From the NCBI GenBank assembly GCA_038087875.1, contig CM075995.1, forward strand, positions 4,404,001 to 4,468,000: DNA of 64,000 nucleotides. Reading direction: 5' to 3'. Below the pieces are notes generated by a model that ran no database searches, was not told the origin of the DNA, and saw only the letters and a program-made list of their open reading frames with translations. The DNA comes from Malacoraja senta (taxonomy: Eukaryota). Below, piece after piece: positions 9,023 through 55,548 of this stretch; position 1 is the first letter of the stretch, and each line of letters begins with the position of its first letter. The translations under genes and the position numbers were made by a program.

Positions 9023-10456
9023 TAAACTACTTGTTCCAAACAAACAAACAAATGGTGGCGCAGCGGTAGAGCTGTTGCCTTACAGCACCAGAGACCCGGG
9101 TTCGATCCTGACTATGGGTGCTTGTCTGTACGGAGTTTTACGTTCTTCCCGTAACCTGTATGCATTTTCTCCGAGATCTTCAGCTTCTCCCCACACTCCA
9201 AAGGCATACAGGTTTGCAGGTTAATTGGCTTGGTGTAAATGTAAAATTGTCCCTAGTGTGTGTTGGGTAGTGTTAATGTGCGGGATTGTTGGTCGGTGCT
9301 TCGCTGGGTCAAAGGGCTGGTTCCGCGTTGTACCTTGAAACTAAACATACCAATAGGGATTGGTTGCTCTGACATCTGCAACACATATTTCAATATTTTA
9401 CGTGTTGCTGTCCAAAGATTAAAGCTTTGAAACGCTGACGTGATTGTCTGCTGTAGTTGCCGCTGACAGGGGATGGAATTTGGCATTTTCAGCAGCATCA
9501 TCAATGAATTCTCAATTTACTCCAAGTCCATTCACAAATTCGCAGACGACTCCCCCATAGTGGGCCGAATATCAATAGTAACATAGAAACATAGAAAATA
9601 GGTGCAGGAGTAGGCCATTTGGCCCTTTGGGCCAGCACCGCCATTCAATATGATCATGGCTGATCATCCAGAATTAGTACCCCGTTCTTGCTTTCTCCCC
9701 ATATCCCTTGATTCCGTTAGCCCTAAGAGCTATATCTAACTCTCTCTTGAATACATCCACTGAATTGGCCTCCACTGCCTTCTGTGGCAGAGAATTCCAC
9801 AGATTCACAACTCTCTGGCTGAAAAGGTTTTTCCTCATCTCAGTCATAAATGGCCTACTCATTATTCTTAAACAGTGACCCCTGGTTCTGGACTCCCCCA
9901 ACATCGGGAACATTTTTCCTGCATCTAGCCTGTCCAATCCCTTAAGAATTTTATATGTTCCAACTAGACAAAGTGGGTCCCATGTTCACACAGGAGGGCT
10001 GGTCCTCCAATGCAATATTCCACCTCTCCACTAATTCCAATAATGGTGGCCAGTGGGGGGGGGGGGAGACTTTCTGGAGCGCTAGTATGGGTATTGTGGG
10101 CTGAAGGGACTGGTTTCCTGAGGGCTAGTATGGACATTGTGGGCCAAATGGATTCTTGTGGTGACAGCTCAGTCACTCAAGCCTGATGTGCTGGCAGCTC
10201 ACTCACGCTGGTGGGCAAGCAGTTGACTCACGGCTATTGGTGGGCAGTGGAAGCAGGTTCTCTGGGTGCTTTCAAGAGAGAGCTAGATAGGGCTCTTAAA
10301 AATAGCTGAGTCAGGGGATATGGGGAGAAGGCAGGAACGGGGTACTGATTGGGGTTGATCAGCCATGATCACATTGAATGGCGGTGCTGGCTCGAAGGGC
10401 CAAATGGCTTACTCCTGCACCTATTGTCTATTATCTATTGTCTATTGCTTGAAATT

Positions 10457-11002
10457 CCATTTCAAGCAGGGTGCAAGGCCACCAAATTCAAATGCAGTTC
10501 CCTACCATTTCAATCAGGGTGCAAGGCCACCAAATTCAAGTGCAGTTTCTTACCACTTCAAGCAGGGTGCAAGGCCACCAAATTCAATTGCAGTTTCATA
10601 CCACTTCATGCAGGGTGCAGGACCACCAAACTCAAGTGCAGTTTCATGCCACTTCAAGCAGGGTGCAAGGCCAGCAAATGCTAGTGCTGTTTAATTCCAT
10701 TTCAAGCTGGGTACAAGGCCACCAAATTCAAGTGCAGTTTCATACCACTTCAAGCAGGGTGCAAGACACCCAAATTGAAGTGCAGTTTCATACCATTTCA
10801 AGCAGGGTGCAAGGCAACCAAATTCAAGTGCAGTTTCATATCATTTCATGCAGGGTGCAAGGCCACCAAATTCAAGTGCAGTTTCATACCATTTCATGCA
10901 GGGTGCAAGGCCACCAAATTCAAATGCAGGTTCATACCATTTCATGCAGGATGCAAGGCCACCACATTCAAATGCAGTTTCATACCATTTCAAGCAGGGT
11001 GA
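10457..11002. repeat. 48-bp minisatellite, ~11 copies (inside Helitron-like element)
   Basis: Unit ccatttcaagcagggtgcaaggccaccaaattcaagtgcagtttcata. Confidence 0.95.
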
Positions 11003-11377
11003 AACCACCATAAAACCACACAAAACACCACTTAAACACCACTCACGGTTCAGTAGAAATTCAGTGTGTTCAGTTGATTCACAGCTCAGACAGTGTCATG
11101 ACCTCTCCCTCCCTCTTCTTGCAGAGACTGAGCCACACCCACACTTCCAAGTTTTATAATCCCACCGGAAGGGGCGTGGCCTTCATGGCATGATTGACAG
11201 GAGAGAGATTCTCAACATTTTTTTGAACACTAATAACACTTTTATTTTTCATTGATGGGAAGAATCCTCTGCACCTGATGAGCAGAAGGCGACCGAGTAA
11301 GATGGCTAAAAATCACAGCAGTAAGTGGTAGCGTTTTATCTAAAATCAATATGAAGTGCAAACAGGAAGTTGTCAAG

Positions 11378-11992
11378 TAACCACCAACAACCATTTGCAG
11401 TGCAGCATTTCACGGCAGTTACCACCACCAGCAACCATTTGCAGTGCAGCATTTAATGGCAGTTACCACCACCAACAACCATTTGCAGTGCTGCATTTCA
11501 CAACAGTTACCACCACCAACAACCATTTGCAGTGCAGCATTTCAAAGCAGTTACCACCACCAACAACCATTTGCAGTGCAGCATTTCAAAGCAGTTATCA
11601 CCACCAACAACCATTTGCAGTGCAGCATTTCAAAGCAGTTACCACCACCAACAACCATTTGCAGTGCAGCATTTCAAAGCAGTTACCACCACCAACAACC
11701 ATTTGCAGTGCAGCATTTCAAAGCAGTTACCACCACCAACAACCATTTGCAGTGCAGCATTTCAAAGCAGTTACCACCACCAACAACCATTTGCAGTGCG
11801 GCATTTCACGGCAGTTACCACCACCAACAACCATTTGCAGTGCAGCATTTCACGGCAGTTACCACCACCAACAACCATTTGCAGTGCAGCATTTCAAAGC
11901 AGTTACCACCACCAACAACCATTTGCAGTGCAGCATTTCAAAGCAGTTACCACCTCCAACAACCATTTGCAGTGCACATTTCAAAGCAACCA
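11378..11992. repeat. 44-bp minisatellite, ~14 copies (inside Helitron-like element)
   Basis: Unit ccaccaacaaccatttgcagtgcagcatttcaaagcagttacca. Confidence 0.95.
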
Positions 11993-12419
11993 CATTTTCA
12001 TTTTCAAACCACATTAAGGGCACTCACAGTTGAGTAGACATGTGTTCAGTGTTATTCACAGCTCAGAGAGACGTGACCCTCTCGCTTCCTCCATCTTGCA
12101 GAGACTGAGTGAGGCACAACACTTCCGGGTTTTATAGTCCATCCCCCCTCCCACCAGCAGGGGCAGCAGAGAGAATGTCAACTTTTAAAAAACATTAATA
12201 ACTCTTTTATTTTTCATCAATGAGAAAAATCCTCTTGTCCTGCGCAGCATAGGGGGACTCTGAGTAAGATGGCCAAAAATCACAGCCGTAAGTGGCAGCG
12301 TTTTTTCAAAAATCATGAAACAGAAAAACAGGAAGTGGTCAAGATCTTACTTTTAGTAATATAGATAACATCCCCTCTCATCCTTCTGAATATATGCCCA
12401 GTCAATCCATTATTTCAAA

Positions 12420-18880: not shown

Positions 18881-20749
18881 GGTTTAAGCCAGCTTTTGCC
18901 GTATATTTTTTTTCTCTCTCTCTCTGCTTAACAGAGCAACAGAACAAAAACAGCAGTCAGCAGAAATCATGTTTGGAGCCAGTGTATTACATGGGCCACT
19001 TTGAAAAGTATTCGATTGTTAGAATGTGGATGATGAGGAATTTCTTTAGACTGAGGGTAGAATTGATTGCCACAGATAGCTTTGGAGACCAAGACATTGG
19101 GTATTTTTAAAGTAGATGTTGATAGATTCTTGATTCGTAAGGGCGTCAGAGGAGAAGGCAGGAGAATGGGGTTAAGAAGGAAAAATAGATCAGCCATGAT
19201 CGAAGGGCGGAGTAGACTCGATGGGCTGAATGGCCTAATTCCGCTCCTTTGTCTTACATTTTTGGGTATTCTCAATATTTAACTGAATCTAAATATTGTG
19301 CATTAACAGTGCATAATATATGTCCCTTCATATAAAGATATAGGCAAGCACAGATGTATGAATGCACATAATATGGTGCTTCTTAATAGCTATTAAAATA
19401 ATATTGTTTATATTGTACAAATAGCAGGGGTCTGAATTTTTTTTTCCACCATTTACAGTTTAACTTTATTTAAATTTAATGTGAATGGACCTAACCCTAA
19501 CCATTTACTGTTTTAGACAATAGACAATAGGTGCAGGAGTAGGACAATTCGGCCCTTCGAAACAGCACCGCCATTCAATATGATCATGACTGATCATTCC
19601 CAATCAGTATCCCGTTCCTGCCTTCTCCCCATATCCCTTGACTCCACTATCTTTAAGAGCTCTATCTAACTCTCTCTTGAAAGCATCCAGAGAATCGGCC
19701 TCCACTGCCTTTTGAGGCAGAGAATTCCACAGACTCACAACTCACTGGGTGAAAAAGTTTTTCCTCATCACTGTTCTAAATGGCTTACCTCTTATTCTTA
19801 AACTGTGGCCCCATTTGCTTCATTGTAATTAAGTGTGAATAAATCTTATTTAGTACTGTAGTATGTATAATATATAACAGTGCATGAATAACAGTGCATA
19901 CCCATTTACATTTTATGTCGATTTTAATTTAGTGTGGATAGATCTAAAATCTAAGAACTATAATATGTATAATATATAACAGTGCATGTAAAACAGTGCA
20001 TAATAGTGCGTAACCATTTACAGTTTTTGTTTATTTTAATTTAATGTGAATAGATCCTAACCCTAACCCTTTACAGTTTTTGTATATCTAAATTCAGTAG
20101 AGATCTTATTTCTAAGTGCTGCAGTATGTGTAAACGGGATGCATCACAGCTCGGTTTGGGACCAGTCCATCCAAAACCGCAAGATATTGTAGCGAATTGT
20201 GGACGCAGCCCAGACCATCACACAAACCAACCTCCCTTCCATTGACTCTATTTATACCTAGGTCATAGCATCAGAGAACATAGGTGCAGGAGTAGGCCAT
20301 TCGGCCCTTCGAGCCAGCACCGTCATTCAATCTGATCATGGCTGATCATCCAGAATCAGTACCCCGTTCCTGCTTTCTCCCCATAATCCCTTGATTCCGT
20401 TCGCCCCAAGAGCTATATCTTGAATACATCCATTGAATTGGCCTCCACTGCCTGCTGTGGCAAATAACTAAACTGTTAAACTAAACTGAATATTAGGGTC
20501 TCGACCCGAAACGTCGCCAATTCCTTCTCTCCATAGATGCTGCCTCGCCTGCTGAGTTACTCCAGCATTTTGTGTCTACCTTGAATAATGCATTATAAAG
20601 TGCATGTATAACAGTGCATGACCCTTGCAGTTTCTGTTGATTTTAAGTCAGCGTGGATTGATCTCATAAGGACTGTAAAGTATAGTATATGCTGATTTCC
20701 AGTCACATAGAAGTAGATGGGTTAACTAGCGGTTCACACATTCACTCAC

Positions 20750-21036
20750 TCGAGTTTCTTGAACTTCTCCTTGCCTCCCGCCACGTACTGCTTGCCGCTG
20801 TCCAGCTCCTGCAGCTGGTAAACGCGGTGTCCCTGCTGCGGGGTGTAGATGTTGCGGACGGCGCCGAACGGCGGCTCCAGCCCGTTGGTCACCTCCTTGA
20901 GGAACGCCTCGAACGTGGACATCCGCCGCTCGTTGATCACGAACTTTCTGCCGGCGAAGAAGGGGTCCCCGTTGCGGTAAACCCGCACACTCTTCACCGC
21001 CGGCTGCGACAGAAAGCTCGGCTTGGCCGCTGCCAT
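20750..21036 (-). CDS. DCDC2: Doublecortin domain-containing protein 2, first coding exon (first DCX domain)
   Basis: ATG at 21036. Translates MAAAKPSFLSQPAVKSVRVYRNGDPFFAGRKFVINERRMSTFEAFLKEVT...PFGAVRNIYTP...YVAGGKEKFKKL, matching the vertebrate DCDC2 N-terminus. Ends phase 2 at a GA|GTGAGT donor. Confidence 0.95.
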
Positions 21037-21265
21037 AGCCGGCGTTGGAGGGACTGGGGTACCGGGGAGAAGTGAGACGGGGAGGTAGGGGAGAGAGGGC
21101 AAGGGCAAAATACTTCTCTACCTGGCCGCCGCGGTCAGATGGGCCGATTGGTGTTACATTTGGGATTGCAGGGGCCCGGGGGGGGAAGCGTTGCGGGAAG
21201 CGGCCGGAGTTGCCACTCACTCGGTGGGGAAATGTATCCACTGCTTTGAACTGCAACACTCCGCC

Positions 21266-23512: not shown

Positions 23513-26269
23513 AATGATGACAGGTGGAACAGGAAAGACGTTGAAGTAACTCAGCAAGGTCAGGCAGCATCCCTGGAGAACATGGATAGGTGACGTTTCA
23601 GGTCGGGACCCTTCTTCAGACTGATGTTGCTTCTCCAGGGATTTGTTTAGTTTACCTTAGTTTAGAGGTACCGCGCGGAAACAGGCCCTTCGGCCCACCG
23701 AGTCAGTGCCAGCCAGCAATCCTCGCACACTATCGCTACCCTTACACACTAGGGACAATTTACAATTTTTACCAAAGCCAAATAACCTACAAACCTGTTC
23801 GTCTTTAGAGTGTGGGAGGAAACCGGAGCATCTGGAGAAAACCCACGCAGGTCACAGGGAGAACGTGCAAACTCTGCACAGACAGCACCCATAGTCAGGA
23901 TCGAACCCAGGTCTCTGGCGCTGTAAGGCAGCAACTCTACCATTGCGCCACCGTATGTTGCCTGACCTGCTGAGTTGCCCCAGCATTTTGCATCTTCCCT
24001 TGGTAAACCAGCATCAGAGGTTCTTTGTTTCTACCGTAGACCGGGAGCTACAGCAGGGGGCTGGGGAGTGGATCATACTTCAGCAGTGCACTCCCTCTCA
24101 TTTACACAGTGCCCCCGAGACTCAAGATTCTCACCGCCATGCCCTACACTCCACCACTTTTGCCTCAGGGCCTTCTGTAAGTCAATAGGCATGTTATACC
24201 TTATCAAGGAAACTTTTGAAGACAGCCTTAAATCTTTTCCTCCATCCACAATCTAATCTCTTACGACAGAGCTCAGGCCAGAGCATCTATTTCAGGAACA
24301 GTTTAAGGTGAGAGGAAAAATTATTTTTCTAGGCACCTGAGGGACAACTTTTTCACACAGTGAAACACAGTGGGACTGTGGAACGAGCTGCCAGAGGAGG
24401 TAATTGAGGAAGATATAACAGTATTTAAAAAAATACTTGGACAATTACATTGATAGGAAAGTTTTAGGGATATGGGCCAGACACGGGCAAATGGGACGAG
24501 CTTAGTTGGGGCATCTTGGTCAGCATGGATGAGTTGGGCTGACACGCCTGTTTCCATGCTCTGTGACTCATGGTTACTATGCCGTGTTATTCCACCACTT
24601 TGTGTTCTATGGAAGATTCCAGCATCTGCAATTCATTGTGTCTCCATCTGTTTTTGGAGTTTGGTGGTGTCAGCCATGCCAACAATGAGCTGGTTGTCGG
24701 AGCCAAAAGCACGCAGTTGGGGCCTTGATGGCAAGTGGATGTCGGCCTGGGTGAGCTTATGGACATTGCTTTGCTCATCCTACCAGTGGAATTAGAAGAT
24801 TATGGCAAACCATCTCTCCAGATCTTTGAGAGTTCTTTTAAATATTTTTAAGGCGGAGATTGACAAATTCTTGATTAGTACGCGTGTCAGGGGTTATGGG
24901 GAGAAGGCAGGAGAATGGGGTTGAGAGGGAAAGATAGATCAGCCATGAATGAATGGCAGAGTAGACTGATGAATGATGGGCTTTGCGCTGGGTTTGTGGT
25001 TTAATTTTCAATCATCCCTTTCTTCAAATAGCCAAAGACTACTATAGTAATAATAATAATACACTTTATTGTCATTGTAAATACATACAACGAAATTTCA
25101 GGAGCACTGCCCGAGCGGAGCTCCAACGTATCAGATAAATAATAACGAATAACGAATAACAAAAACGGCCAGAGAACGTCAAGTTAAGTTATAATGTGCA
25201 ATATTTCACAGTATAGTGTTGTAGCAGTACATAATATTGGCTATGGGGGGTGTGTGTTCAGTGCAGAGTTCAGAGCGGTGATGGCCTTGGGGTAGAAACT
25301 GTTTGTTAATCTTGTGGTGTGTGATTTGATGGACCTGTAACGCTTTCCTGAGGGCAGAAGGGCAAACAAGTGATGTGCGGGTTGAGATGGTAGGAGCAAT
25401 AAGGAAATGTAATCTCACTTAAAAATAAGAATGATACAGGAGAGGAACACATAGAAAGGTGGAAACTGACGTGAAACAGAAAAGGCAGCCTGAGATGGGT
25501 TGAATAAGCGGTCTATTTCTGTAGATAGACACAAAGGGCTGGAGTAACTCAGCGGGTCAGGCAACATCTCTGGAGAAAAAGGATGGATGACGTTTCGGGT
25601 CGGGACCTTTCTTCAGACGTTTCTGGTCGAAACCCTGCTTCATTGTTCTATTTCTATGTTATTTATGGAATTCTAGTGGCCATCTTTAAATTAAGCTCCA
25701 AGGGGTGTTATCATAAATGAACTGTTTGCAAACTTCCCACCTTCGAAAGATCAGAATTTCACGCCAGTTACCCTGGCCATCCCTCCTTATTGCTACTTTC
25801 ATCACAACCTATGGACAGCACAGTGAACAAAACACTCTGGCAAAGCTGCTATCATTTCTGCTGACCAATTATCATGTTTCAATGTTCAGAAAAATTTCAG
25901 GATGATCTTATTCAAACATATCTATATAATTAAAACTCATCTTGACCACTTCCTGTCTGCACTGTATATTGATTTTAGAAAAAATGCTAACATATATTGC
26001 TATGATTTTTGGCCATCTTACTCACAGTCCTCCTCCGCTGAGCAGGACCCGTGGATTTTTCCCATCGATGAAAAATAAAAAAGTTATGAGTGTTTAAAAA
26101 ACCTTGAGTCCTCTCGCCTGTCAATCACCGTGATGAAGGTAACAACCTTTCCGGGGGGGGGCGGGGAGGGGAGGCAGGACTATAAAACCTCAGATGCCTG
26201 AACATGACTCAGTCACTCTGCACGATCGCGAGGGAGAGGCCACGACTCATTCTAGGCTGTGAATCAACT

Positions 26270-26765
26270 GAAACTGCAATGGCAATGGAAATGAAATGAA
26301 AATGCAATGAGCTGTTTGGCCTGCCCTGTGCTTGAAACTGCAATGGCAATGGAAATGAAATGAAAATGCAATGAGCTGTTTGGCCTGCCCTGTGCTTGAA
26401 ACTGCAATGGCAATGGAAATGAATTGAAAATGCAATGAGCTGTTTGGCCTGCCCTGTGTTTGAAACTGCAATGGCAATGGAAATGAAATTAAAATGCAAT
26501 CAGCTGTTTGGCCTGCCCTGTGCTTGAAACTGCATTTTCATTTCTTTTCCATTGCCATTGCAATGAGTTGTTTGGCCTGCCCTGTGCTTGAAACTGCAAT
26601 GGCAATGGAAATGAAATGAAAATGCAATGAGCTGTTTGGCCTGCCCTGTGTTTGAAACTGCAATGGAAACGGAAATGAAATGAAAATGCAATGAGCTGGT
26701 TGGCCTGCCCTGTGCTTGACATTGAAATGGAAATGAAATGAAATGAGTTGTTTGGCCTGCCTGAA
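26270..26765. repeat. 64-bp minisatellite, ~8 copies (inside second Helitron-like element)
   Basis: Unit gaaactgcaatggcaatggaaatgaaatgaaaatgcaatgagctgtttggcctgccctgtgctt. Confidence 0.95.
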
Positions 26766-27207
26766 ACTACTAATTTCGGCCCACCAAGCCCTTATTAGCC
26801 AAGAAACCAGTCCCTTTTGCCCCAATGCCCGTATAAGCCCAGGAGGAGCATTTTGGCCCAAAAGGCCCATTCCAGACCAGGAAAAGCACAGAAAAACTGC
26901 CTATAATTGAGATTTAACTCCGATTTTCTTAAAGAGCCTCTTCGGCCCATCATGCCTGTACTAGCCCAGGAGGAGTCCCTTCAGCCCATCAGTAAATATT
27001 CCCCCTGCAAGTATTAAACCTCACCCGAGTATTTTTCTCCCTCCCTTCATTGGCTCCCTGTGAGTTCCAGGCCAGGATAGACTTTCCTCCATTGCTGTGA
27101 TCTGCAGAAAAAGATGAAAAATGTCTGAAATTGATTCTCCACCCTCTCCCCCTTCTCTCTCACAGAGTCTCTCACCTGTTTTGAGCTGAATTTCGGGCAG
27201 TTTCTTA

Positions 27208-27336
27208 GCCGCCAGCCCTCCAGGCCTGAGTGACTGAGCTGCAAGCCCACCAGGCCTGAGTGACTGAGCTGCCAGCCCACCAGGCCTGAGTGACTGAGCT
27301 GCCAGCCTACCAGGCCTGAGTGACTGAGCTGCCAGC
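27208..27336. repeat. 30-bp tandem repeat, ~4 copies
   Basis: Unit gccagcccaccaggcctgagtgactgagct. Confidence 0.9.
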
Positions 27337-28013
27337 ACAAGAATCCATTCAACCCACAATGTCCATACTAGCCCTCTGGAAACCAGTCCCTTTGGCCCAC
27401 AGCACCCATACTAGCACTCCAGAAAGCCCCCCCCCCCCCCCCCCACTGGCCACCAATATTGGAATTGGTGGAGAGGTGGAATATTGCATTGGGGGACCAG
27501 CCCCAACGGGTCCCACTTAGTCCAGTAAGATTCTAAAAGGCTGGCAGGGTAGTTATCAAGTTTGAGATGCAAGAGAGTGAAGATGCTGTCATCTGCAGCA
27601 AATAAAACTGGAAAAACTTGGTGGGTCAAGTGGCATCTGTGGAGACAAAAAGAAAGTTGATTTACAGGTTGATTGGTCGATACAATACGATACGTTAGAA
27701 CGTTATTTGTCCCAGGAGGGAAATTGATCTGCCAACAGCCATAATAACACAAAATGCACAAAACGCAAATTACATGAAATCCTGATGCAGGGTCTCGACC
27801 AAAATGTTGAATATCCTTAGGCCTCCATAGATGCTGTTTGATTCACTGAGTTCCTGCAGCAGAGATACAGCAATAAAACAGGCCTTTTGTCCCACCAAGT
27901 CCACACTGACCATCTATCATCCATTCATGCTAGCTTATCAAAAAAAACTCTTGCCTATGTCAACCTACTGCCTGCGATGCTTTATCCTGCCTCTCCTCTC
28001 TTCCAGTCAATTA

Positions 28014-43813: not shown

Positions 43814-43890
43814 TGAATAGACAACAACAATGTCACACCAAGGATTCATCGCAAAGTGCCCTTGGAAGTGTGGTTCCCGTGTTTTCTGTC
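43814..43890 (+). CDS. MRS2: MRS2 exon 2
   Basis: tttcttcag acceptor, ...DSSQSALGSVVPVFSV (human DVSQATLASVAPVFTV), GTAAGT donor. Confidence 0.9.
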
Positions 43891-43975
43891 GTAAGTGTCG
43901 TTTCTTGAATATTTATAACATTTTAAAGAACATACGCATGCATGCATTACATTAAAAATATATATTTTCTTTCAG

Positions 43976-44012
43976 GTGAAATATGAGAGTACTGGGAATA
44001 TAAGCTTCTTTG
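43976..44012 (+). CDS. MRS2: MRS2 exon 3 (37 nt)
   Basis: ttttctttcag acceptor, VKYESTGNISFF (human TKFDKQGNVTSF), GTAGGT donor; follows an 85-nt intron. Confidence 0.9.
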
Positions 44013-45334
44013 GTAGGTTGGTTTTAATCATTTTATATTTAAAGTATATTTGTTGGTAAGAAATAATTTAACCAATTTTAAATACTTGAACATTGATTCC
44101 ATTTATTTTTGTTCTTTTGCCAGCCTCACTTCATCATCTGTTATGCAATTAATGTACCCACAGTCATCTTATCGACAGACATCTTTAAGTAGCTTGTGTC
44201 ACCTGCATTCATTGTATTTATGTAGGTTTTTAATGCATAATAATTCTTGCCATGCATTGAAGAAATGTAACTGGACATAAGCCTACACCAAACCAAAGGT
44301 TTATTTTAGGAAAGAACTGCAGATGCTGGTTTAAATCAAAGCTGGACACAAAGTGCTGGAGTAACTCAGCGGGACAGGCAGCATCTCTGGAGAGAAGGAA
44401 TGGGTGACTGATCTGTCTGAAGAAGGGTCTTGATCCGAAAAGTCACCCGTTCCTTCTATCCAGAGATGCTGCCTATCCCGCTGAGTTATTCCAGCATTTT
44501 GTATCTATCAAAGGTTTGGTTTAGTTTAGTTTAGATATGTAGCATGGAAACAGGCCCTTCAGCCCACTGAGTCCACACTGACCATTGATCACCTGTTCAC
44601 AGTATTACTATGTTATCCCACTTTCCCATCCAATCCCTGAACATCCGGGACAATTTTAGAGATGCCAATTAATCTATAAACCCGCATGTCTTTGTGATGT
44701 GGAAGGAAACTGGAGCCCTGGAGGAAACCCATGGGAAAATGTGCTAACTCTACATAGACGGTACCTGAGGTCAGGATTGAAACCAGGTACCTCTGGTGCT
44801 GTGAGACAGTAGCTCTACCAGCTATTTCATTGTGCTGCCATAAATATCATTATGGACGGAGTGTGGCAGAGGGTAATGAAAATCTTAGGCAGAAGTGAAA
44901 GTCAAAGAAGAGGAATGTTTCAAAGTATCCATCTAAGATGAGGATATAGAAAGTGAATGAATGAATGAATGAATACTCCACATGGCACAGTGAAATTCTT
45001 CGTTTGCATACCCAAGGTATGCAAATAGTCGCCACATAAAGGTCACTGACAAAGTTACGAAGTATCCCACGCCAGGTCCTCATTTGTTCACCCCCCCCTC
45101 CCCCTTGCTCCAGGTCCAACCCTCCACCCCCCGCACCCCGCAACAGTTTCCCCCACGGCAAGTCCACCTGGTAATGAAGAAAGTGTAAAATGTTGTTCTG
45201 CTGATTATGATTCTGGGTATTTAGTTTGTTTAGTAGTTGAAATGGTAACAAGAGAAAATTACTACGGCTTAAAATGCTGTAGAGATTGGCCTCAAATTTA
45301 TTACTTAATGTTTATAAAATCATTCTCGCCGTAG

Positions 45335-45447
45335 AACGAAAGAGGACTGAACTGTACCAGGAACTTGGTCTCCAAGCGCGAGATTTGCGATTTCAGCACT
45401 TAACGAGTATTAATACCAGGAATAATTGCATCATCCTCAGGATGGAG
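45335..45447 (+). CDS. MRS2: MRS2 exon 4
   Basis: ERKRTELYQELGLQARDLRFQHLTSINTRNNCIILRME, with the conserved ARDLR motif; TAG acceptor, GTAAGA donor. Confidence 0.97.
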
Positions 45448-46032
45448 GTAAGAAGGCTTCCCAGCTGAGAAAGAAAAGCGTTTCAGGTTAAAGGTCATTC
45501 TGGACATGCTGAGAATTTCAAGCATTTTCTGTTTTTGTTTCAGGCTTTCAGCATCTGCGTTTAAGTTTGATTTTCATTTACTTTTATACAGTGGCTTAGG
45601 AAGCATCCAAAAGCATTAAAAACGGAGCAGACGGTGTGTACGCAGCAAGATGCACAAAAATACATTTCATAATAAACAGATCTTTTTAAGCAATTTTGTG
45701 ATTGAGTAATAAATATTGGTTATGGTATCATGAAAATCTTCTTTCAATGATATTGTTAGTCTTTTAAACTCATTTTGAAAGGATACATGAACACTGAAGT
45801 AATCTTACCTGAAGGACTACCTTAAAATTCATAATGATGCATTGAGCTCAGACCTAATACAGGGTGGCACGGTGGAGCAGATGTTAATTGGCTTCAGTAA
45901 AAATTGTAAAAATTGTACATTGTCCCGAGCGTTTAGGATAGTGCTAGTGTGCAGGGATCGCTGATCGGCGCAGACACGGTGGGCCAAAGAGCTTGTTCCC
46001 GTGCTGTATCTCTAAACTAAACTAAACTATTT

Positions 46033-49000
46033 CAGGGCTCTCGCTTAACTTTTTTTCCCTGTTGCCAGCCGGGCAACCCTTTTTAGGTTGCCAAACGACA
46101 GTTTAGGCGGTCATTTAAGACGGCTTGCATGACACGTGCGATAATGTGCTCGGACGAAGTGCGTAGTTACCAGTCAGAATTATGGTCAATGAAGCATTCA
46201 CGTATTATTTCTGCTTCAAATAAAGTCACAAACTAAACATATTCACCAATCAAGACGTGATATATACCACAATGACATGCAGCAAAATTATAATACAGTA
46301 TCTCATCTCCTTTTACACGTTGCAATGAATGCAATTTCTATTATTTCTTTCCACTTCCAAACAGAATTCTGGTTGGATTATTCAGCGTATGATCAACCTC
46401 AGTGAGACCAAGTGCACGCTTGGCGATCGCTTTGCACAACACCTCCACTCAGTTCACAATAACCAACCTGATCTCCCGGTGGCTCAGCACTTCAACTCCC
46501 CCTCTCATTCCGAATCCGACCTTTCTGTCCTGGGCCTCCTCCATGGCCAGAGTGAGGCCCACCGCATATTGGAGGAACAGCACCTCATATTTTGCTTGGT
46601 AGTTTGCACCTCAGCGGTATGAACATTGGCTTCTCCAATTTCAGGTAGTCCTTGCTTTCTCCCACCTTCCCCTCCCATTCCCAGCTCTCCCACAGCCTAC
46701 TGTCTCTGCCTCTTCCTTTCTTTTTTCCGACCCCCCCCCCCCGACATCAGTCTGAAGAAGGGTCTCGACCCGAAACGTCGCCTATTCCTTCGCTCCATAA
46801 ATGCTGCCTCACCCGCTCATTTTCTCCAGCTTTGTCTACCAACGGGATCCCACCACTGGCCACATCTTCCCATCTCCTCCCCTGTCGGCTTTCCGCAGAG
46901 ACCGCTCCTTCCGTAACTCCCTGGTCATTTCGTCCCTTCCCACCCAAACCACCCCCTCTCCTGGCACTTTCCCTTGCATCCGCAGGAAATGCTACACTTG
47001 TCGTTTTACCTCCCCCTTGACTCCATTCAAGGACCCAAACGGTCTTTCCAGGTGCGGCAGTGGTTAACGTGCACCTCCTCCAACCTCATCTATTGCATCC
47101 GCTGCTCTATGTGTCAGCTGCTCTACATCGGTGAGACCAAGCATAGGCTTGGTGATCGCTTTGCCCAATACCTCCGCTCAGTTCGCAATAACCAACCTGA
47201 TCTCCCGGTGGCTCAGCACTTCAACTCCCCCTCCCATTCCGAATCCGACTTTTCTGTCCTGGGCCTCCTCCATGGCCAGAGTGAGGCCCACCGTAAATTG
47301 GAGGAGCAGCACCTCATATTTGGCTTGGGCAGTTTACACCCCAGCGGTATAAAAATTGACCTCCAATTTCAGGTAGTCCCTGCTTTCTCCTCCGCTTCCC
47401 AGCTCTCCCTCAGCCCACTGTCTCCGCCTCTTCCTTTCTTCTTCCCACCCCCTGAACCCTCACATCAGTTTGAAGAAGGGTCTCGACCCAAAACGTCGCT
47501 TATTTCCTTTGCTCCATAGATGCTGCATCATCCACTGAGTTTCTCCAGCATTTTTGTTTCCCCCATTCACACATGTTCGGCTATCCCACTTTCCTCACCC
47601 ACTCCCTACATATTAGGGGCAATTTTACAGAGACAAGTTAACCTACAAAGCCAATGCATCTTTGGGACGTGGGAGGAAACCTACATGCTTGCATGGAGAA
47701 TGTGCAAATTCAACACAGACAGTGCCCGAGGACAGGATCGAACACAGGTCACTGGCGTCTGAGGCAGCAAGTCCACCAGCTGTGCTACTATATTTTAATT
47801 TCCAACACACACAAAATTATACGTTGATAACTTTGGTTACTGAAAAAAAAGAATCTATCCATTTTCAGTCTTAAATCTCTAAGTGATGCTATGTCCCCCT
47901 TTAAACTGTATGTTTAAATTTAGTTCAAGACTATGGGGCAGTACATTGGCCATAAAGTTGCTGCCTAAAATTGCCAGAGACCCGGAATTGATCCTGAATA
48001 TGGGTGCTGTCTGTATGGAGTTTGCTCCTTTTCCCTTTGATCACATGGGTTTTCTCCGGGTGCTCTTGTTTCCTTCCACATTCCAAAGGTGTGCAGGAAC
48101 CTTTTTCAGACCCAACCCAAAACGTAATATTTTCCTTTTGTCCAGAGATTCTGTCTGACCTGTTGAGTTACTCCAGCTTTTTGTGTCTATCTTAAGTTTA
48201 AACCAGCATCTGCAGTTCCTTCCTACACACATGATACTATACGATAGAACTTTTTAAATCCCAGGAGGGAAATTGTGTGTGTGTGTATAGTTATATATTC
48301 ATATTTTGTTTTCTCGTTGATAACATTGTTTACAGAGTACTATGTTTACATATTCTGTTGTGCTGCTGCAAGTAAGGATTTCATTGGGACATGAGAGAAT
48401 AAAACACTCTTGACTCTTGACTTACGTCGTTAATGTGTGGGATAGAACTAGTGTATGGGTGATCGGTGGTCGGCATGGACTCGGTGGGCCAAAGGGCCTG
48501 TTTCCACGCTGTATCTTTAAATTAAACTAAAACACTAAAACCAGAGGAAATCTAAAGAAGGGTCTCTACCTGAAACGTCACCCAATTTCTTCTATCCAGA
48601 GATGTTGACTGCTCCATGGAGTTCCGCCGCACAATTAAAGCATGGAATACTCTTCACCGTACTATAGGTACCCAACCAGAAGCAATTAAATTTAAGGTAA
48701 CTCTTTTTTGTTTAAGTCCAAGTCAAGAGTCAAGAGAGTTTTATTGTCATGTGTCCCAGATAGGACAATGAAATTTTTGCTTGCTGCAGCATAACATAAT
48801 ATGAAACATAATACAGAACAGGAGATAAAAGTTTACTGTGTCTATATACCATAGACCATATATATACACAATAAATAAACAGATAAAATGCAATAGGCTA
48901 TTTTTGGAGGACCAGGAAACCAAGAAGCAAGAGTTACTCCAGGGAGTTACTCCAGTTCGAACGAGTGATTCTGCGTTGGTTTTCAGCGGTCGTGGCGAGT

Positions 49001-49450
49001 GGACAGCAATGGCAGCCAGATCTACCACCATGCAAAGGGAGGGAGAAAGTGGCCGACGTCGACCAGTTGCAGTGACAGTGTGCATGTGCAGGGCGGCACA
49101 TGCGCACAGCCACGGCCGATGATGTGCTGGCAAAAGATCCTCGCTATAGGATCTTTGGTGCTGACCGTGGTTGTGCGCATGTGCAAGGCGGCCGGCCGTG
49201 CCGGCGGATGAGGAGCGGATAGAGACACGGACATGGATAGCGGGCGGAGACCCGAGACATGGACACGGATAGCGAGCGGAGACGGAGAGTGCCACAGAGA
49301 AAGAGAAAGATAGAGAGGGAGCCCGCTCAGAATTAAATGATAGGTGTCCCGGGTGCTTGCCAAGCCGGGCAAAATGGCATGGCTTTTAGGTTGCCCGGCG
49401 GGACTGTGGGTTGCCATTGGCAACCGGGCAACCGCTAATTTCGAGCCCTG
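46033..49450. mobile_element. Non-autonomous TIR element (CAGGGCTC ends) carrying nested Penelope, SINE and other inserts
   Basis: CAGGGCTC...GAGCCCTG termini, TATTT on both flanks, subterminal GGCAACC/GGTTGCC repeats. Confidence 0.7.
46401..47560 (+). mobile_element. Penelope-like element 3' region (GIY-YIG endonuclease) in partial tandem, with pLTRs
   Basis: CTSSNLIYCIRC..C..LYIGET...VAQHFN...E..LIF.LGSL.PSG motifs present twice, each copy followed by the ctgaagaagggtctcgacccgaaacgtc pLTR segment. Confidence 0.9.
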
Positions 49451-49724
49451 TATTTGTAATGCTTGTAGCACCAGTCCATAAGCATTACAAATAAACTTTA
49501 AATTTACCAGTAAACCAAAAGTGAAAATTGCAGATGCTGAAAAACTGGAGCAAAAACAAAGTGCAGGAAATGAGGAGCAGATAAAATGACATCTGTGTCA
49601 TTCTGAAATGTTGACTCCTCTTACCACAGATGCTGCCTTACGTGTTGAATGTTTCCTACATTTTCTAATTCTGTCTAAAACTTCCAGTCCTTAACAAAAA
49701 GGTTTTGCTGAATTTATGTTGGCA

Positions 49725-50191
49725 ATGTCATGAGATTGAAAGGGTTCAGAAAAGATTTACGAGGATATTGCCAGGACTAGAAGGTGTGAGCTATTGGGAG
49801 AGGTTGAGTCGGCTTGGTCTCTATTCTATGGAGCGCAGGAGGATGAGGCGTGATCTTATAGAGGTGTACAAAATCATGAGAGGAATAGATTGGGTAGATG
49901 CACAGAGTCTCTTGCCTAGAGTAGGGAAATCAAGGACCAGAGGACATAGGTTCAAGGTGAAGGGGAAAAGATTTAGTAGGTATCTGAGGGGTAACTTTTG
50001 GGTGTATGGAACAAGCTGCCAGAGGCTGGGTCTATCCCTTTGTTTAAGAAGTAGTTGGACAGGTATATGGATAGGACAGGTTTGGAGGGATATGGACTAG
50101 GTGCAGGCAGGTGGGACTATGTTGCTGGGACATGTTGGCCGGTGTGGGCAAGTTGGGCCGAAGGACCTGTTTCCACATTGTATCACTATGA
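49725..50191 (+). mobile_element. CR1 LINE 3' fragment abutting the MRS2 exon 5 acceptor
   Basis: ERVQKRFTRILPG...DLIEVYKIMRG and 3' UTR ending tgtatcactatga. Confidence 0.85.
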
Positions 50192-50212
50192 TTTTTTCTC
50201 TCCATTTATCAG

Positions 50213-50386
50213 ATCCTTAAAGCTGTAATAACTCCAAAGTATCTTCTTATCCTGGATTATCATCAATCAAATCTGGAGCATTGGCTTTTGAAGGACCTCA
50301 CATTACAATTGGCTGGAGATGGACAACTGGCCACATACTCTTTGCCTTTTGAATTCCGGGCCATAGAAGCAATACTTCATCACAGG
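50213..50386 (+). CDS. MRS2: MRS2 exon 5
   Basis: ILKAVITPKYLLILDY...YSLPFEFRAIEAILHHR, with the LPFEFRA motif; CAG acceptor, GTTAGT donor. Confidence 0.97.
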
Positions 50387-53383
50387 GTTAGTAAAAGGGA
50401 ATTATTTATGTTGCAAAAAAATAAAATCAATGCTTACCAACATGACTTCATTTTCCTCACACGGAATGAATGACATGGTTGAGAGAATATAAATGTTTTA
50501 GAAAGCAAAGTCAACTACCTCAGTTTAGTTTAGTTTATTGTCACGTGTACAGTGAAAAGCTTTTGTTGCGGGCTAACTAGTCAGCAGAAAGACAACACAT
50601 AAATGGAGACACACCTTAATACTATTATACGGAGGGATCTTAGTCTTCTTCAAAATTCAATAAGATAGCATGCAGGTACAGCGAGCAGTTGGGAAGACAA
50701 ATGGAAAACTAGTCTTTATGGTAAATAGGTTAGGATTTAAAAATAACTAACGTCTTGCCACAATTGTACATTACTTGAGACTACATCTGGTGTGCAGATT
50801 TAGTGGTCTTGTTCAAAGAGGGATATGCTTGCATTGGAGGTAATTCAGTAAAGGTTCACTAGGCTGATTCCTGGGATGAAGGTATGAAGTTTTGCAGTTT
50901 GAGCCTGTACTCATTGGAATGTAGAGATGGCAGCATGGTTGTGCAGCGGTACAGTTGCTGACATATAGCGCCAGGAAAGGTTTCCTCCTGCACTCCAAAG
51001 ATGTACAGTTTCATAGGTTAATTGGCTTGGTATAATTGTAAACTGTCCCTAGTGTCTGTCGGATAGCTGGTCCGCGCGGACTCGGTGGGCTGAAGGGCCT
51101 CTTGCCACGCAGTATCTCTAAAGTAAACTAAGCTAAAAAGATGATTTTATTTTAAGCATTGAAGATTCTGAAGCAGCTTGAAAGGTAGATGGCGAGGGAA
51201 CATATTCCCATTCAATGTGATCAAGACTGATCATCCCCAATCAGTACTGAGATGAGGAAGGACTTCTTTTGAGGGTCATGCATCTTTAGGATACTGGCAG
51301 TGGGGACTGAACTATTATATTCCAGGCCAGATTTGCATTCTTTAAGGAAGTTATGAGGATCAGGCAATAAAGTAGAACAGAGGACAAGATCATGGCCTTG
51401 TTGAGAGGCAGAACAAGGAAATCCTCTGTTGATGCCAACATATTTCCTCAAATTTCATAAATTCTAGTTCCAATTTCTTCCTGTGACTATATCTGGCTAT
51501 TCTTCTTGTCAATATCTGGCTATGTTTTCTGTGAAGTTAACAAGAAGTTAAAATTTCCCAATGCAATGTCTACTCATCACCGCTTGTGGTGATATGAAAG
51601 CTACACAATGGCAGTCCCACGCCATCCAGCTTCAGCTGGCTATCACAGAATCTGTAATGTGAACTCCAAAGACGTACAGGATTGTAAGTTAATTGGTTTG
51701 GAAAATTTGTAAATTGCCCCTAATGTGTGTAGGATAGTGTTTGTGTGCGGGGATCGCTGGTCGGCGCAGTCTCGATGGGCTGAAGGGCCTGATTCCGCAC
51801 TGTATCTCTAAACTAAACTAAACTTCAGTCACGCTAATAGATTTTCCTGACTTCATTAGAAATCTCTTGCTTTTAATTATTTGTTGAATAAGTATATTCA
51901 AGGGTTGTAATTTTAAGATGATCAAAATATATTTTTTCCTTGGATTTTGGTTTCTTTTCAGATTTCCAAATGATTTGAAAGTAGAGTTATATTTTTCAGC
52001 TAAAGTTTCAATCCTTGGTTTTAGATCAAGCAATGAATCATAAATCAGTTATCATAAAGCTGGCTCGATGGGCTGAATGGCCTAACTCTGCTCAGATGTC
52101 GTATGCTGATCTTGTTAGAAGAATAAAGTTGACCTAATATTTATTAGCGTAACTGCAACTGGTCACCTAGCTACAGGGGCAATGTCAGTAAGGTGAAAAA
52201 TATGCAGACGAGATTCACCAGGATGTGTACTATAGTCTACATTTGCCGCACTATCAACTGCATTGAGCGTGAGACTCATGCATTTCACGCAATTCTCACG
52301 CTGATCACAGAATTTGACATCTTCAGTTGTCGCCGACAGGGAAGTAGCTTGTCGTATCTTGTCGCGGGTGGACGTAAGTTGACTTCGGTTGTCGTAGGTT
52401 GCCGCCTGTGTGGTCGTAGGTGGACGTCACAATTCGCGAGGAATTGTGTCGCTGGTCGACGTAGCTTGACATTGATTAGGTGGTAGCTTGTCGTAGACAT
52501 TGTCATGGGGTGGGTCCAGATTTCTCACTCTCAACTCTCGCCCAACGTTGGCAGCCCTGCATTTGAATTGTTCGCAAACTTGCAATCCATTTCTTTGCGT
52601 ACCATCACGACTCCATGCGACCAATTTCAGTTTAGTTTAGAGATACAGGCAGAAACAGGCCCTTCAGCCCACCGAGGCCGCACCGACCAGCGATCCCCGC
52701 ACAATAACATTATCCTACACACAAGAGGGACAATTTACATTTATACCAAGCCAATTAACCTACAATCCTGTACATCTTTGGAATGTGGGAGGAAACCGAA
52801 GATCTCGGAGAAAATCTACGCGGTCATGGGGAGAACGTACAACCTCCGTACAGACAGCACCCATAGTCAGGATCGAACCCGGGTCTACTGGTGCTGTAAG
52901 CCAGCAATTACGCAGCGCCGCCGTGCAGTTGAAAATAAGTCAGAATCAAAAATCAAGATTGTCGTGGGCTTTCCGCGAAGTGCATAGTTTTTGTTCTGGA
53001 CCATGCGTCCAATTTTATCAATGTCTGCATGGCTTCTTCTGCATCCCATGCAGGTCACCAGCCTAGATGCAAGCTTTATTGACACTCATAAAGCCTGCAT
53101 ATTTGGGGTATTGTGTTCAGTTTTGGTCACCTGGCATTGGTGCCATTTCTCCAGCAGAGGGCCAACAAATAAAATGTTTGTCGACCTTCTAAAAAAAGTT
53201 AGTCAGTCCCAAGCAATCATGCTCTACACCTTGTCTCCATGTATGTCCAGATCCAGATATCCCTAAAGATTTTGTCCATTTTGCTTGGTCAAGCCAGCTG
53301 ATAAACTTCCATTGTCAGATGGTGCACTTATCAGGTAGCGTATGTCCATTTTGCTGAAAGGTATTTTCTTTTATGTTGTCCAG

Positions 53384-53514
53384 ATTAGTGCTCTGCAAGC
53401 AAGTCTGAATGAGTTACAACCTCAAATATTAGAGACATTAGAAGCTCTGGTGAATCCCAAACAAATGTCCATTGATCGAAGCAAACTGCATATTTTACTT
53501 CAAGACAGCAAAAA
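53384..53514 (+). CDS. MRS2: MRS2 exon 6
   Basis: ISALQASLNELQPQILETLEALVNPKQMSIDRSKLHILLQDSK; CAG acceptor, phase-2 GTAAGA donor. Confidence 0.96.
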
Positions 53515-55157
53515 GTAAGAGTAAACTAATGGCGAAAGTGGAATTTGATAGAAGTATTATAAATGTAGCACAGAAGGTGGCCATTTGACCCATCATGTTT
53601 ATTCAGGATCAAAAGTGGACTTGAAGACTTTTTTGGTCCATAGTTTACAACTTGGTCCAGAGTTTACAACTCTTCAAGTCCTCAAATGAATGGTTTCTGC
53701 CTTCATTATCCCTTATTTGTCCCATACATTGATAAATGGATATTATCATAATCGATAAAATCAGCTTTATTGATTTTCAGAGCTCCTTGGTTCAGTGAGT
53801 AAAATGATTTTTCCTCCTTATCTTTCTCTCAATTAACTTATGTTTTCGGGTTGCACATTGTCTTGTTTATTCTCCCTATTAAGGAAATGTGGTCCTTTCT
53901 TGTGTTCAGGCCTCTCACAGTTTTACACATCTCAATTACTGTAAATCTCCCCTCAGTTTCCTTTGTTGTAAAAACAAAACTGTTCATAAACAGTCACCCT
54001 CACAACAATAGACAATAGGTGCAGGAGTAGGCTATTTGGCCCTTTGAGCCAGCCATTCAATGTGATCATGGCTGATCATCCCCAATCGGTACCCCGTTCC
54101 TGCCTTCTCCCCATATCCCCTATCTTTAAGAGCCCTATCTAGCTCTCTCTTGAAAGTATCCAGAGAACCGGCCTCCACCGCCCTCTGAGGCAGAGAATTC
54201 CAGACTCTCTGTGTGAAAAAGTGTTTCCTCATCTCCGTTCTAAATGGCTTACCCCTTCCTTATTCTTAACTAATACATAGATTTCCTCTGTCATCTTTGG
54301 TGCTTTTGCATTTTTTTTACAATATGCTTACCAGTACTGTACCTTGTACCCGTGTTGTGAACTATTGTTTTCTATCTTCAAGCTTGACTTTCCTGTTCTT
54401 GTTTTCCGTACCTTAGTGAATAAAAGCAACTATCCCAAAATGCCTTCTGAACCACCTTTATTAACTTGTACTGCAATCAGTCTGAAGAAAAGTCTCGACC
54501 CAAACGTCACCCATTCCTTCTCTCCAGAGATGCAGCCTGTCCCGCTGAGTTACTCCAGCATTTTGTGTCTACCTTCGATTTAAACCAGCATTTGCAGTTC
54601 TTTCCTACACACTGCTACCTTAATTAATGTGTTACAGTTTGAGGTTCAACCAACACTTTCTTTATGAACCCCAATGACAAAGCTGGTAGAGCTACTGCCT
54701 CATAGTGCCATAGATCTGTGTACAATGCTGATTTTAGCTGCGGTGTATGGAATTAACATATTCTCCCTGTGACCGTATGGGTTTCCTCCAGGTGCTCCAG
54801 TTTCCTCCCACATCCCAAAGACGTGGGTTAGTAGGTATAAATTGCCTCGATATGTCAGTTTAATTTAGTTTGGAGATATAGCACGGAACTTCAGCCCACC
54901 AAATCCGTGCCGACCATCGACCCCCCGCTCACACTAGTTCTGTTACCCCACTTTCTCATTCACTCACTTCACACTAGGGGCAGTTTATAGAGGCCAATTA
55001 ACCTGCAAACCCGCCCGTCTTTGGGATGTGAGGGGAAACCGGAGCACCCAGAGGAAACCCATGCGGTAGAATCCTAGAGTGGGGAGAATGTGGAGAATAA
55101 AGATGGGATTAATGTAGAATGTGTGTAAGCGGGTGGTTGATTCTCAGTGTGGACTTA

Positions 55158-55548
55158 AGCCCCTGTCCCCCTTAGGAGACCTAAACAGCAACTTCTGGTG
55201 ACCTTGCCCGCCACCCAAGGTTTCCATGAGGTCACCGGAGGTTTTGGTCACTCTCCCTAATGGTCGAAAGTGGTTTCCGCGTGGTCGAGGCTTCATCTAG
55301 GTTGCTGCTATTTTTTCATCATGTTTAAAACTGGCCTCGACTAAATATAGGTTGCCGTTTTTAAATTAGATAATTTTTTAGTCACAGGTCTAGTCAAAGC
55401 CAGTTTTCTTCATAGTCGAGGAAGGTTTTCAACATATGCGTGGGAAGTGGTAGGAGGTTGCAGGTCACCTCGACCTTGATTTTTTTTTTGGGTGGCGGGC
55501 AAGGTCACCAGAGATTGCTGTTTAGGTCTCCTAAGTGGGACAGGGGCT
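55158..55548. mobile_element. PIF/Harbinger-type MITE inserted in a SINE tail
   Basis: TIRs AGCCCCTGTCCC...GGGACAGGGGCT (~60 bp), TTA TSD on both sides. Confidence 0.9.

What the first reader, a model, noticed from the sequence alone, without database searches (positions are those of the whole stretch)
11126..11180. Pol II core promoter with conserved spacing in all three Helitron 5' modules
Seen: minus strand GCCACGCCCC (Sp/KLF) TTCCGG (ETS) .. TATAAAA .. GGAAGT .. TCAGTC (Inr). The same TATAAAA-to-TCAGTC arrangement occurs at 12136->12103 (with CCGGAAGT) and 26181->26214. The Inr A lies 29-30 nt after the first T of TATA in all three, although the spacer has diverged. Each promoter points into the minisatellite. 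The two intronic ones fire in the DCDC2 sense direction; the intergenic one points toward MRS2. Inference: a mobile promoter making repeat-containing RNAs or alternative host transcripts.
Basis: partly seen in the sequence, partly recalled or inferred. Interest (0 to 1): 0.72.

Follow-up and report, generated by a model that had tools for sequence, protein, structure and literature searches.

The report
Promoter-like cassette inside a Helitron family
A high-copy jumping element carries a textbook-looking gene start signal near its front end, likely a leftover of its parent element's own promoter, and the one RNA library tested showed no transcripts starting there.

Summary
They sit in two non-autonomous Helitron insertions, not three: 9964-12365 (-, holding modules B and A) and 25921-27525 (+, module C). 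Both went in at A|T without target duplication. The arrangement beats chance: 0.2-0.6% of module shuffles with a lenient Inr; 13 of 13 motif columns invariant against 6 of 20 in the spacer. The modules also carry YY1, ETS, Sp and PBX-PKNOX-type motifs, and A and B have a GTGAGT donor about 80 nt downstream. Function is not shown. In one polyA RNA run (about 6% read), stranded depth has no step at the Inr, no start pile-up, and reads run through the TATA box. Only 19 of 1777 reads were 99% alike, so the locus itself was barely tested. Best reading: the inherited promoter and first exon of the autonomous parent, mostly silent in copies. No support for alternative DCDC2 or MRS2 transcripts. Promoters inside Helitrons are already described.

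The parts
9964..12365 (-). Composite non-autonomous Helitron 'AB' (2402 bp): 5' module B, 44-bp array, second 5' module A, 48-bp array, LINE fragment, 3' module ending CTAG
   Evidence: flanks rejoin into an uninterrupted LINE (89% over 120 nt, 0 gaps, E 2e-41)
12012..12365 (-). Module B: terminus TCTATAT after an A; ETS-type ACTTCCTG 12336-12329; YY1-type GCCATCTT 12273-12266; TATAAAA 12136-12130; CCGGAAGT 12128-12121; Inr TCAGTC 12108-12103 (A at 12106); donor-like GTGAGT 12027-12022
   Evidence: reads leave the element at 12366-12367 into mixed flanks (73 reads, agreement 0.42-0.43)
11380..11988 (-). 44-bp minisatellite, 13.9 copies
11030..11377 (-). Module A, lacking the terminal ~20 bp: ACTTCCTG 11370-11363; GCCATCTT 11306-11299; TGATTGACAG (PBX-PKNOX DECA motif, on +) 11191-11200; GCCACGCCCC 11180-11171; TTCCGG 11170-11165; donor-like GTGAGT 11046-11041
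11126..11158 (-). The finding's core: TATAAAA 11158-11152 and Inr TCAGTC 11131-11126 (A at 11129, 29 nt)
10457..11001 (-). 48-bp minisatellite, 11.4 copies
10247..10447 (.). Fragment of a common LINE 3' end inside the element
   Evidence: 94% complementary to 36406-36606 (I2)
9964..10231 (-). 3' module of AB, 86% identical to C's; palindrome broken; ends CTAG before a T
25921..27525 (+). Non-autonomous Helitron 'C' (1605 bp), starts TC after A, ends CCAG before T
   Evidence: flanks rejoin into LINE sequence (87% over 31 nt, 0 gaps, E 1.5e-5)
25921..26268 (+). Module C: ACTTCCTG 25948-25955; GCCATCTT 26012-26019; DECA motif 26118-26127 (on -); GGGGCGGGG 26158-26166; TATAAAA 26181-26187; Inr 26209-26214 (A at 26211); cut off before the GTGAGT donor
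26269..26746 (+). 64-bp minisatellite, 7.5 copies
27143..27165 (+). Acceptor-like site (19 of 19 pyrimidines, then CAG), the only one passing the filter in either element
27493..27525 (+). 3' end of C: GGGACC/GGTCCC palindrome ending 11 nt before the terminus
   Evidence: 6-bp stem; folding no better than shuffles, z -0.55
20746..21060 (-). Context: first coding exon of a doublecortin-domain gene (DCDC2 by recalled exon layout and synteny); exon 2 candidate 13847-13796
   Evidence: PF03607 E 5e-21
43814..62073 (+). Context: MRS2 exons; exon 1 not located
   Evidence: PF22099 E 1e-4 and 4e-6, below the curated cut-off as single exons

Best explanation
These are the 5' ends of a high-copy non-autonomous Helitron family, and the TATA-Inr cassette in them is likely the inherited promoter and first exon of the autonomous parent element, likely silent in most copies. 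Shown: two Helitron-type insertions; an inward-pointing TATAAAA and TCAGTC 259-290 bp from the 5' end; other promoter-type motifs upstream; a GTGAGT donor-like site about 80 nt downstream in A and B; no initiation signal in one RNA run. Inferred: in the parent, Pol II would start at the Inr A, read an ~80-nt leader, splice at GTGAGT over the minisatellite and reach the RepHel gene. Selection for transposase expression in separate parent lineages would explain why TATA and Inr stayed fixed while the spacer drifted (modules 71-76% identical). Internal deletion then gave non-autonomous families that copy the cassette passively, and RNA reads over it come from host transcripts reading through.
For: Helitron anatomy and empty sites. 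Motif columns 13 of 13 invariant, spacer 6 of 20, background 62.5% (P 0.002 and 0.003 under independent columns; only 1 of 301 placements at this offset is fully invariant). Spacing 29-30 nt lies in the -32 to -29 window of PMC1779604 (abstract). 4, 2 and 5 kinds of promoter motif in A, B, C against 2 or more kinds in 1.4% and 3 or more in 0 of 1179 overlapping background windows. TGATTGACAG occurs twice in 64 kb, both in the modules; it is the Prep-Pbx DECA motif (PMC6023610 passages). High copy number: 29,393 and 25,806 contigs laid in runs X16 and X17. A C>T change at the CpG of the spacer ETS site in 20-24% of DNA depth (12126) fits neutral decay in copies. No start pile-up; first-mate-+ depth 238-261 from 12145 to 12106 and 172-194 at 12061-12095. 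Precedent: the first 966 bp of wheat Feng8 drive a reporter (PMC13286980 passages); C. elegans Rep-helicase genes have heat-shock elements in their own promoter region (PMC6927752 passages); the autonomous Heli2Xen copy has minisatellite arrays at both ends (PMC12001565 passages).
Against: No autonomous parent was found: no genome is held and no Helitron-like ORF was recognised among the 63 frames of 120 aa or more (read by eye, 7 frames scanned). The module has 14 invariant runs of 5 or more, and the two longest are not TATA or Inr, so conservation is not specific to the core promoter. Within the B-like family the contrast is not significant: 0 of 13 motif places, 5 of 21 spacer places and 13 of 106 other places vary at 20% (P 0.15 and 0.13). 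The motif panel was recalled and chosen after I had seen ETS, YY1, Sp and DECA in the modules, so its enrichment is inflated. C lacks the donor, and AB lacks a passing acceptor. 'Mostly silent' rests on one library, and TATA promoters are often tissue-restricted (PMC1779604 abstract).
Confidence: 0.5

Rival explanations
1. Captured host promoter and first exon, as in bat HelibatN3 (NUBPL promoter, six codons, splice donor), able to trap downstream exons.
For: Promoter-short exon-donor layout in A and B; B has an ATG in AAGATGG context at 12094 that at least 96% of DNA depth keeps at 12092-12093; precedent PMC4778049 (passages).
Against: The promoter-type motifs start about 30 bp from the terminus and are interleaved with the terminal region; 25-29% divergence with motif retention needs selection in the element, not one passive capture (inference); B's frame stops after 12 codons, before the donor, and A and C lack the ATG. 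No source gene could be searched for.
Confidence: 0.15
2. Not a promoter: the blocks are transposase or other protein binding sites, or TATAAAA is the relic TA-rich 5' end of an older nested Helitron, and the Inr match is incidental.
For: Many other blocks are equally invariant and 12 of 13 block spacings are kept; Helitron left ends are TA-rich (TATATAAA in Heli1Xen1, PMC12001565 passage); no initiation seen.
Against: Helraiser cleavage determinants lie within 40 bp of the ends (PMC4778049 passage), far from these blocks; no TC precedes the box, and no loose end with mixed flanks is listed at 12137-12140 among the rows shown (212 rows not shown); TATA, Inr, spacing and donor are all in one orientation.
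Confidence: 0.15
3. The promoter is kept by selection on the non-autonomous elements themselves, because transcription or factor binding just inside the 5' end would open the AT-rich terminus for nicking by RepHel.
For: Helraiser cuts single-stranded but not double-stranded DNA in vitro (PMC4778049 passage), yet donors must be double-stranded (PMC5876387 abstract passage), so the end has to be opened locally (inference). All three modules keep the cassette, pointing away from the terminus.
Against: No direct test; inheritance from autonomous parents explains the same pattern with fewer steps; CpG decay in the ETS site in 20-24% of DNA depth.
Confidence: 0.1
4. One reading: these copies are working promoters that give alternative DCDC2 or MRS2 transcripts or minisatellite RNAs.
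For: Motifs intact at all three sites; A and B point with the DCX gene and have donors; first-mate-+ reads outnumber the others about 3 to 1 around TATA-Inr; in module A first-mate-+ depth rises from 42 at 11149 to 62 at 11116.
Against: The excess is already present upstream of TATA (236 reads at 12141). About half is one haplotype (12119 G in 115 of 242 against 0 of 70), and 91 reads run on upstream past 12147 into unlike sequence (median 68 nt). With marker reads removed the strand ratio is 1.74-1.86 on both sides of the Inr (2.48 at 12058). The rise in A coincides with an 18-fold drop in DNA alignability (X16: 831,979 to 45,520). Only 19 of 1777 reads are 99% alike. C lost its donor.
Confidence: 0.08

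Closest known systems
HelibatN3 of Myotis bats (captured NUBPL promoter; PMC4778049, passages read)
   Same: Non-autonomous vertebrate Helitron with an inward promoter, short exon and splice donor near the 5' end.
   Different: There the source gene and chimeric transcripts are shown. Here no source gene or transcript is shown, the core is TATA-Inr, and it is kept in three diverged versions in front of minisatellites.
Feng8, autonomous wheat Helitron (PMC13286980, passages read)
   Same: The 5' end of a Helitron holds the promoter that reads inward.
   Different: Feng8 is autonomous, heat-inducible and reporter-tested; these elements encode nothing recognisable and are untested.
Caenorhabditis Helitrons supplying heat-shock elements (PMC6927752, passages read)
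   Same: Regulatory motifs that may have served the transposase gene are spread by the family.
   Different: There the motifs bind HSF-1 and change neighbouring genes; here the motifs are in the unique 5' module and the four repeat units tested had no panel or HSE-like match.
Heli2Xen / Helitron-N2_XT / Helitron-N1_DR minisatellite-rich Helitrons (PMC12001565, passages read)
   Same: Vertebrate non-autonomous Helitrons largely made of minisatellite arrays; TC start.
   Different: Different repeat units (44, 48, 64, 30 bp here; 166 bp there); sequence relationship not tested; the passages describe no TATA-Inr cassette.

Membership tests
Helitron (canonical, non-autonomous) | 5' end begins TC | tested here: met
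   TCTATAT at 12365 (-) and 25921 (+); boundary confirmed by mixed flanks in reads at 12366-12367
Helitron (canonical, non-autonomous) | 3' end CTAG/CTRR | tested here: inconclusive
   AB ends CTAG; C ends CCAG, one base off
Helitron (canonical, non-autonomous) | Subterminal hairpin about 11 nt before the 3' end | tested here: inconclusive
   C: 6-bp stem ending 11 nt before the end, z -0.55; AB: palindrome broken, z 0.05
Helitron (canonical, non-autonomous) | Insertion between A and T without target-site duplication | tested here: met
   Both elements; rejoined flanks align across the junction to 5 (AB) and 3 (C) LINE copies with no gap at the junction
Helitron (canonical, non-autonomous) | Autonomous partner encoding RepHel with matching ends | not testable with these tools
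   No genome held; none recognised in the window
TATA-Inr Pol II core promoter | TATA box consensus | tested here: met
   TATAAAA (TATAWAW) in all three; eighth base C, so 7 of 8 against TATAWAWR (consensus recalled)
TATA-Inr Pol II core promoter | Initiator 29-32 nt downstream | tested here: met
   TCAGTC with A at 29, 30, 30 nt; window from PMC1779604 abstract; C fails YYANWYY but passes TCAKTY and BBCABW
TATA-Inr Pol II core promoter | Transcripts start at the Inr | tested here: inconclusive
   No start pile-up or depth step in polyA run X22; one library, about 6% read, not cap-selected
TATA-Inr Pol II core promoter | TBP/Pol II binding, TATA-dependent activity | not testable with these tools
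   Needs ChIP or a reporter
HelibatN3-type captured-promoter cassette | Promoter followed by short exon and splice donor | tested here: inconclusive
   GTGAGT at +83 (A) and +79 (B), absent in C; no spliced reads at the donor among the loose ends shown (2240 rows not shown)
HelibatN3-type captured-promoter cassette | Identifiable single-copy host source gene | not testable with these tools
   No genome; collection scans gave only chance hits

The most novel reading that the evidence does not exclude
Non-autonomous Helitrons of this family keep a working TATA-Inr promoter because inward transcription opens the AT-rich 5' terminus for RepHel nicking; the minisatellite sits in an intron behind the GTGAGT donor. 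A very abundant family would then seed tissue-restricted promoter-plus-donor cassettes across the genome, and in the right tissue A and B would give 5'-truncated DCDC2 transcripts.
Probability: 0.1. Interest if true: 0.75.

Novelty: new member of a known kind. Interest (0 to 1): 0.33.

Why it matters
Helitrons with their own or captured promoters are known in bats, nematodes and wheat, so the kind is not new. What this adds is a clean TATA-Inr-donor cassette held in three 25-29% diverged versions of an abundant vertebrate family (cartilaginous fish by my recollection of its repeats, from no call). It points to where a vertebrate Helitron may start its own transcript, and gives three exact bases to check in CAGE data. 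If transcription at the 5' end helped nicking, it would bear on how RepHel, which cuts single strands, opens a double-stranded donor.

Tried and rejected
Whole-genome copy set: none held. Metagenome scan: 2 loci, both unrelated by reading. Viral-contig scan: 37 loci; over all 39 loci the longest BLAST match to the modules was 33 nt (9 alignments of 30 or more), taken as seed extensions. Rfam at gathering threshold: 0 matches in the window, so no snRNA or 7SK-type gene. Earlier findings: nothing in 4 look-ups. Run search: no RNA holder listed; X22 came as an addition and its organism may differ from the window's. Strand excess as evidence of initiation: rejected; library polarity was not calibrated on a known gene, but no step appears on either strand. 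Depth gradient in module A: rejected as alignability. Spacing conservation as a separate argument: rejected. Family-wide motif-versus-spacer test: right direction, not significant. TATAAAA as a nested Helitron start: no TC and no mixed-flank boundary among rows shown. HSE-like sites in the arrays: none in the four units tested. DCDC2 exon 3 and MRS2 exon 1: not found. Minisatellite ORFs: no Pfam match above cut-off. Papers: searches listed no description of this family or of a TATA-Inr cassette in cartilaginous-fish Helitrons; repeat databases and subscription journals are not covered, and I read no supplements.

Full report
Observation. The motifs are at the stated places. TATAAAA starts at 11158 (-), 12136 (-) and 26181 (+), and the A of TCAGTC follows at 29, 30 and 30 nt. 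Only these 3 of 21 TATAAAA sites in the window have TCAGTC 15-30 nt behind; 30 dinucleotide shuffles give 0.03 per window at 28-32 nt. The sites are homologous, so I also shuffled each module 5000 times: 0.22-0.58% carry TATAWAW plus a lenient Inr at the right distance, at most 0.04% with TCAKTY. With the lenient Inr, 4 other TATAAAA sites in the window also qualify. The box reads TATAAAAC, so it misses the 8-letter consensus by one base (consensus recalled).

What the modules belong to. B and C begin with TCTATAT right after an A; the elements end CTAG (9964) and CCAG (27525) before a T. Rejoining the flanks restores LINE sequence with no gap at the joint: 5 other copies for AB (best 89% over 120 nt) and 3 for C (best 87% over 31 nt). 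That is A|T insertion without target duplication, as described for Helraiser (PMC4778049 passages). C has a palindrome ending 11 nt before its end, though it folds no better than shuffles; AB's is broken. So there are two insertions. A is a second 5' module inside AB, missing its first ~20 bp; in runs X16 and X17, 74 and 76 contigs continue from 11377 into a Helitron-type terminus, so A-like modules are terminal elsewhere. The family is abundant: 29,393 and 25,806 contigs were laid in those runs, and 2786 and 2760 on a 150-bp piece in X17 and X20. These counts are not copy numbers.

Conservation. The modules are 71-76% identical. TATA and Inr are invariant in 13 of 13 columns, the spacer in 6 of 20, the module in 62.5% of 285 (P 0.002 and 0.003 if columns were independent; 1 of 301 placements at this offset is fully invariant). 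Against this: there are 14 invariant runs of 5 or more, the longest being ATGAAAAATAAAA and GCCATCTTACTC, and 12 of 13 block spacings vary by 2 bp or less, so fixed spacing is the module's norm. Across copies related to B, 18 places vary at 20% or more in some run: 0 of 13 in the motifs, 5 of 21 in the spacer, 13 of 106 elsewhere; not significant. One of them is a C>T change at the CpG of the spacer ETS site, in 20-24% of DNA depth, as expected of decaying copies (inference).

More promoter-like features. All three modules hold ACTTCCTG (ETS-type) and GCCATCTT (YY1-type); A and C hold GC boxes and TGATTGACAG, which occurs nowhere else in the window and is the Prep-Pbx DECA motif (PMC6023610 passages; that paper found such elements mostly insufficient as enhancers). 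A, B and C match 4, 2 and 5 kinds from a 12-motif panel; 1.4% of 1179 overlapping background windows match 2 or more and none 3 or more. The panel was recalled and not blind. A and B have GTGAGT 83 and 79 nt after the Inr A; such hexamers occur at 0.34 per kb per strand. C is cut before that point but has a strong acceptor-like site at 27165 behind its array. The 29-30 nt distance lies in the functional -32 to -29 window (PMC1779604 abstract).

Transcription. No listed holder of the stretch was on record as RNA, which is no evidence. PolyA run X22 (raw reads, about 6% read, organism possibly not the window's) gave 1777 reads on 10990-12700, only 19 of them 99% alike, and no place where many molecules begin. 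At 5-bp resolution over B (545 reads), first-mate-+ depth is 238-261 from 12145 to 12106, 219 at 12096-12100 and 172-194 at 12061-12095; it does not rise behind the Inr, and again no start pile-up appears. The 3-to-1 strand excess is present upstream of TATA (236 against 63 at 12141). About half of it is one haplotype (115 of 242 against 0 of 70 at 12119; 0.06% of X17 DNA depth), and 91 reads continue upstream past 12147. Without marker reads the ratio is 1.74-1.86 either side of the Inr, and 2.48 at 12058. The rise across A's Inr (42 to 62 reads) matches an 18-fold change in DNA alignability. This is read-through of copies inside other transcripts (inference). Library polarity was not calibrated, and ordinary RNA-seq of one sample can miss a tissue-restricted promoter.

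Host genes. A doublecortin-domain first exon lies on - at 20746-21060 with an exon 2 candidate at 13847; MRS2-like exons lie on + from about 43.8 kb. The name DCDC2 rests on recalled exon layout and synteny; the best structure hits were doublecortin and DCLK. Exon 3 and MRS2 exon 1 were not found.

Mechanism. The most likely reading (0.5) is the parent's own promoter. An autonomous Helitron needs a promoter between its 5' end and the RepHel gene, reading inward, which is where this cassette lies (259-290 bp in). Wheat Feng8's first 966 bp drive a reporter (PMC13286980 passages), C. elegans Rep-helicase genes carry heat-shock elements upstream (PMC6927752 passages), and autonomous Heli2Xen has arrays at both ends (PMC12001565 passages). 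Selection in separate parent lineages would fix TATA and Inr and let the spacer drift; a donor before the array would splice it out. The parent was not found, so these steps are inferred. Rivals: captured host promoter as in HelibatN3 (0.15); not a promoter (0.15); promoter kept because transcription helps open the end for a nuclease that cuts single strands of a double-stranded donor (0.1; PMC4778049 and PMC5876387 passages); working alternative promoters of the host genes (0.08).

Novelty. Helitron-borne promoters and start sites are in print (PMC4778049; PMC3530677 passage). Of bioRxiv 10.64898/2026.08.08.743475, on Helitron minisatellites and transcription in C. elegans, I saw the abstract and outline only. 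Verdict: real, more than chance, promoter-like, function unshown; a new member of a known kind; interest 0.33.

Noticed in passing
window 9963/12366 and 25920/27526: Both Helitrons inserted into remnants of the same LINE family, at A|T sites about 10 bp apart in one AT-rich LINE motif. Two cases only; may be a target preference or chance in an abundant repeat.
   Followed up: partly
window 9964-10231 and 27260-27525: The 3' modules of AB and C are 86% identical while their 5' modules are 71-76% and their arrays differ (44, 48, 64 bp): ends and arrays look shuffled as modules.
   Followed up: partly
window 34548-34691 (+): Short linker-histone H1-like fragment, PF00538 E 0.03, below cut-off; looks like a pseudogene piece.
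   Followed up: partly
window 12058-12147 (reads of run X22): One variant copy of the module gives about half of the reads on one strand and is nearly absent from DNA runs: an expressed polyA transcript elsewhere contains this module; reads loose at 12055 show an unspliced GTGAGT.
   Followed up: partly
window 58393-60011: Tc1/mariner-type transposon with 222-nt inverted repeats (94%) and a frameshifted transposase frame, between MRS2 exons (family recalled).
   Followed up: no
window 2107-2799 (-): Retroelement integrase-like frame (Gypsy-type by recollection), CpG-rich.
   Followed up: no
window 8530-8922 and 29050-29600: Two CpG-rich dispersed-repeat-like segments that score as CpG islands and could be mistaken for promoters.
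   Followed up: no
window 21388-22448: About 1 kb of TCC/CT-rich simple repeat just upstream of the doublecortin-domain gene's first exon.
   Followed up: no
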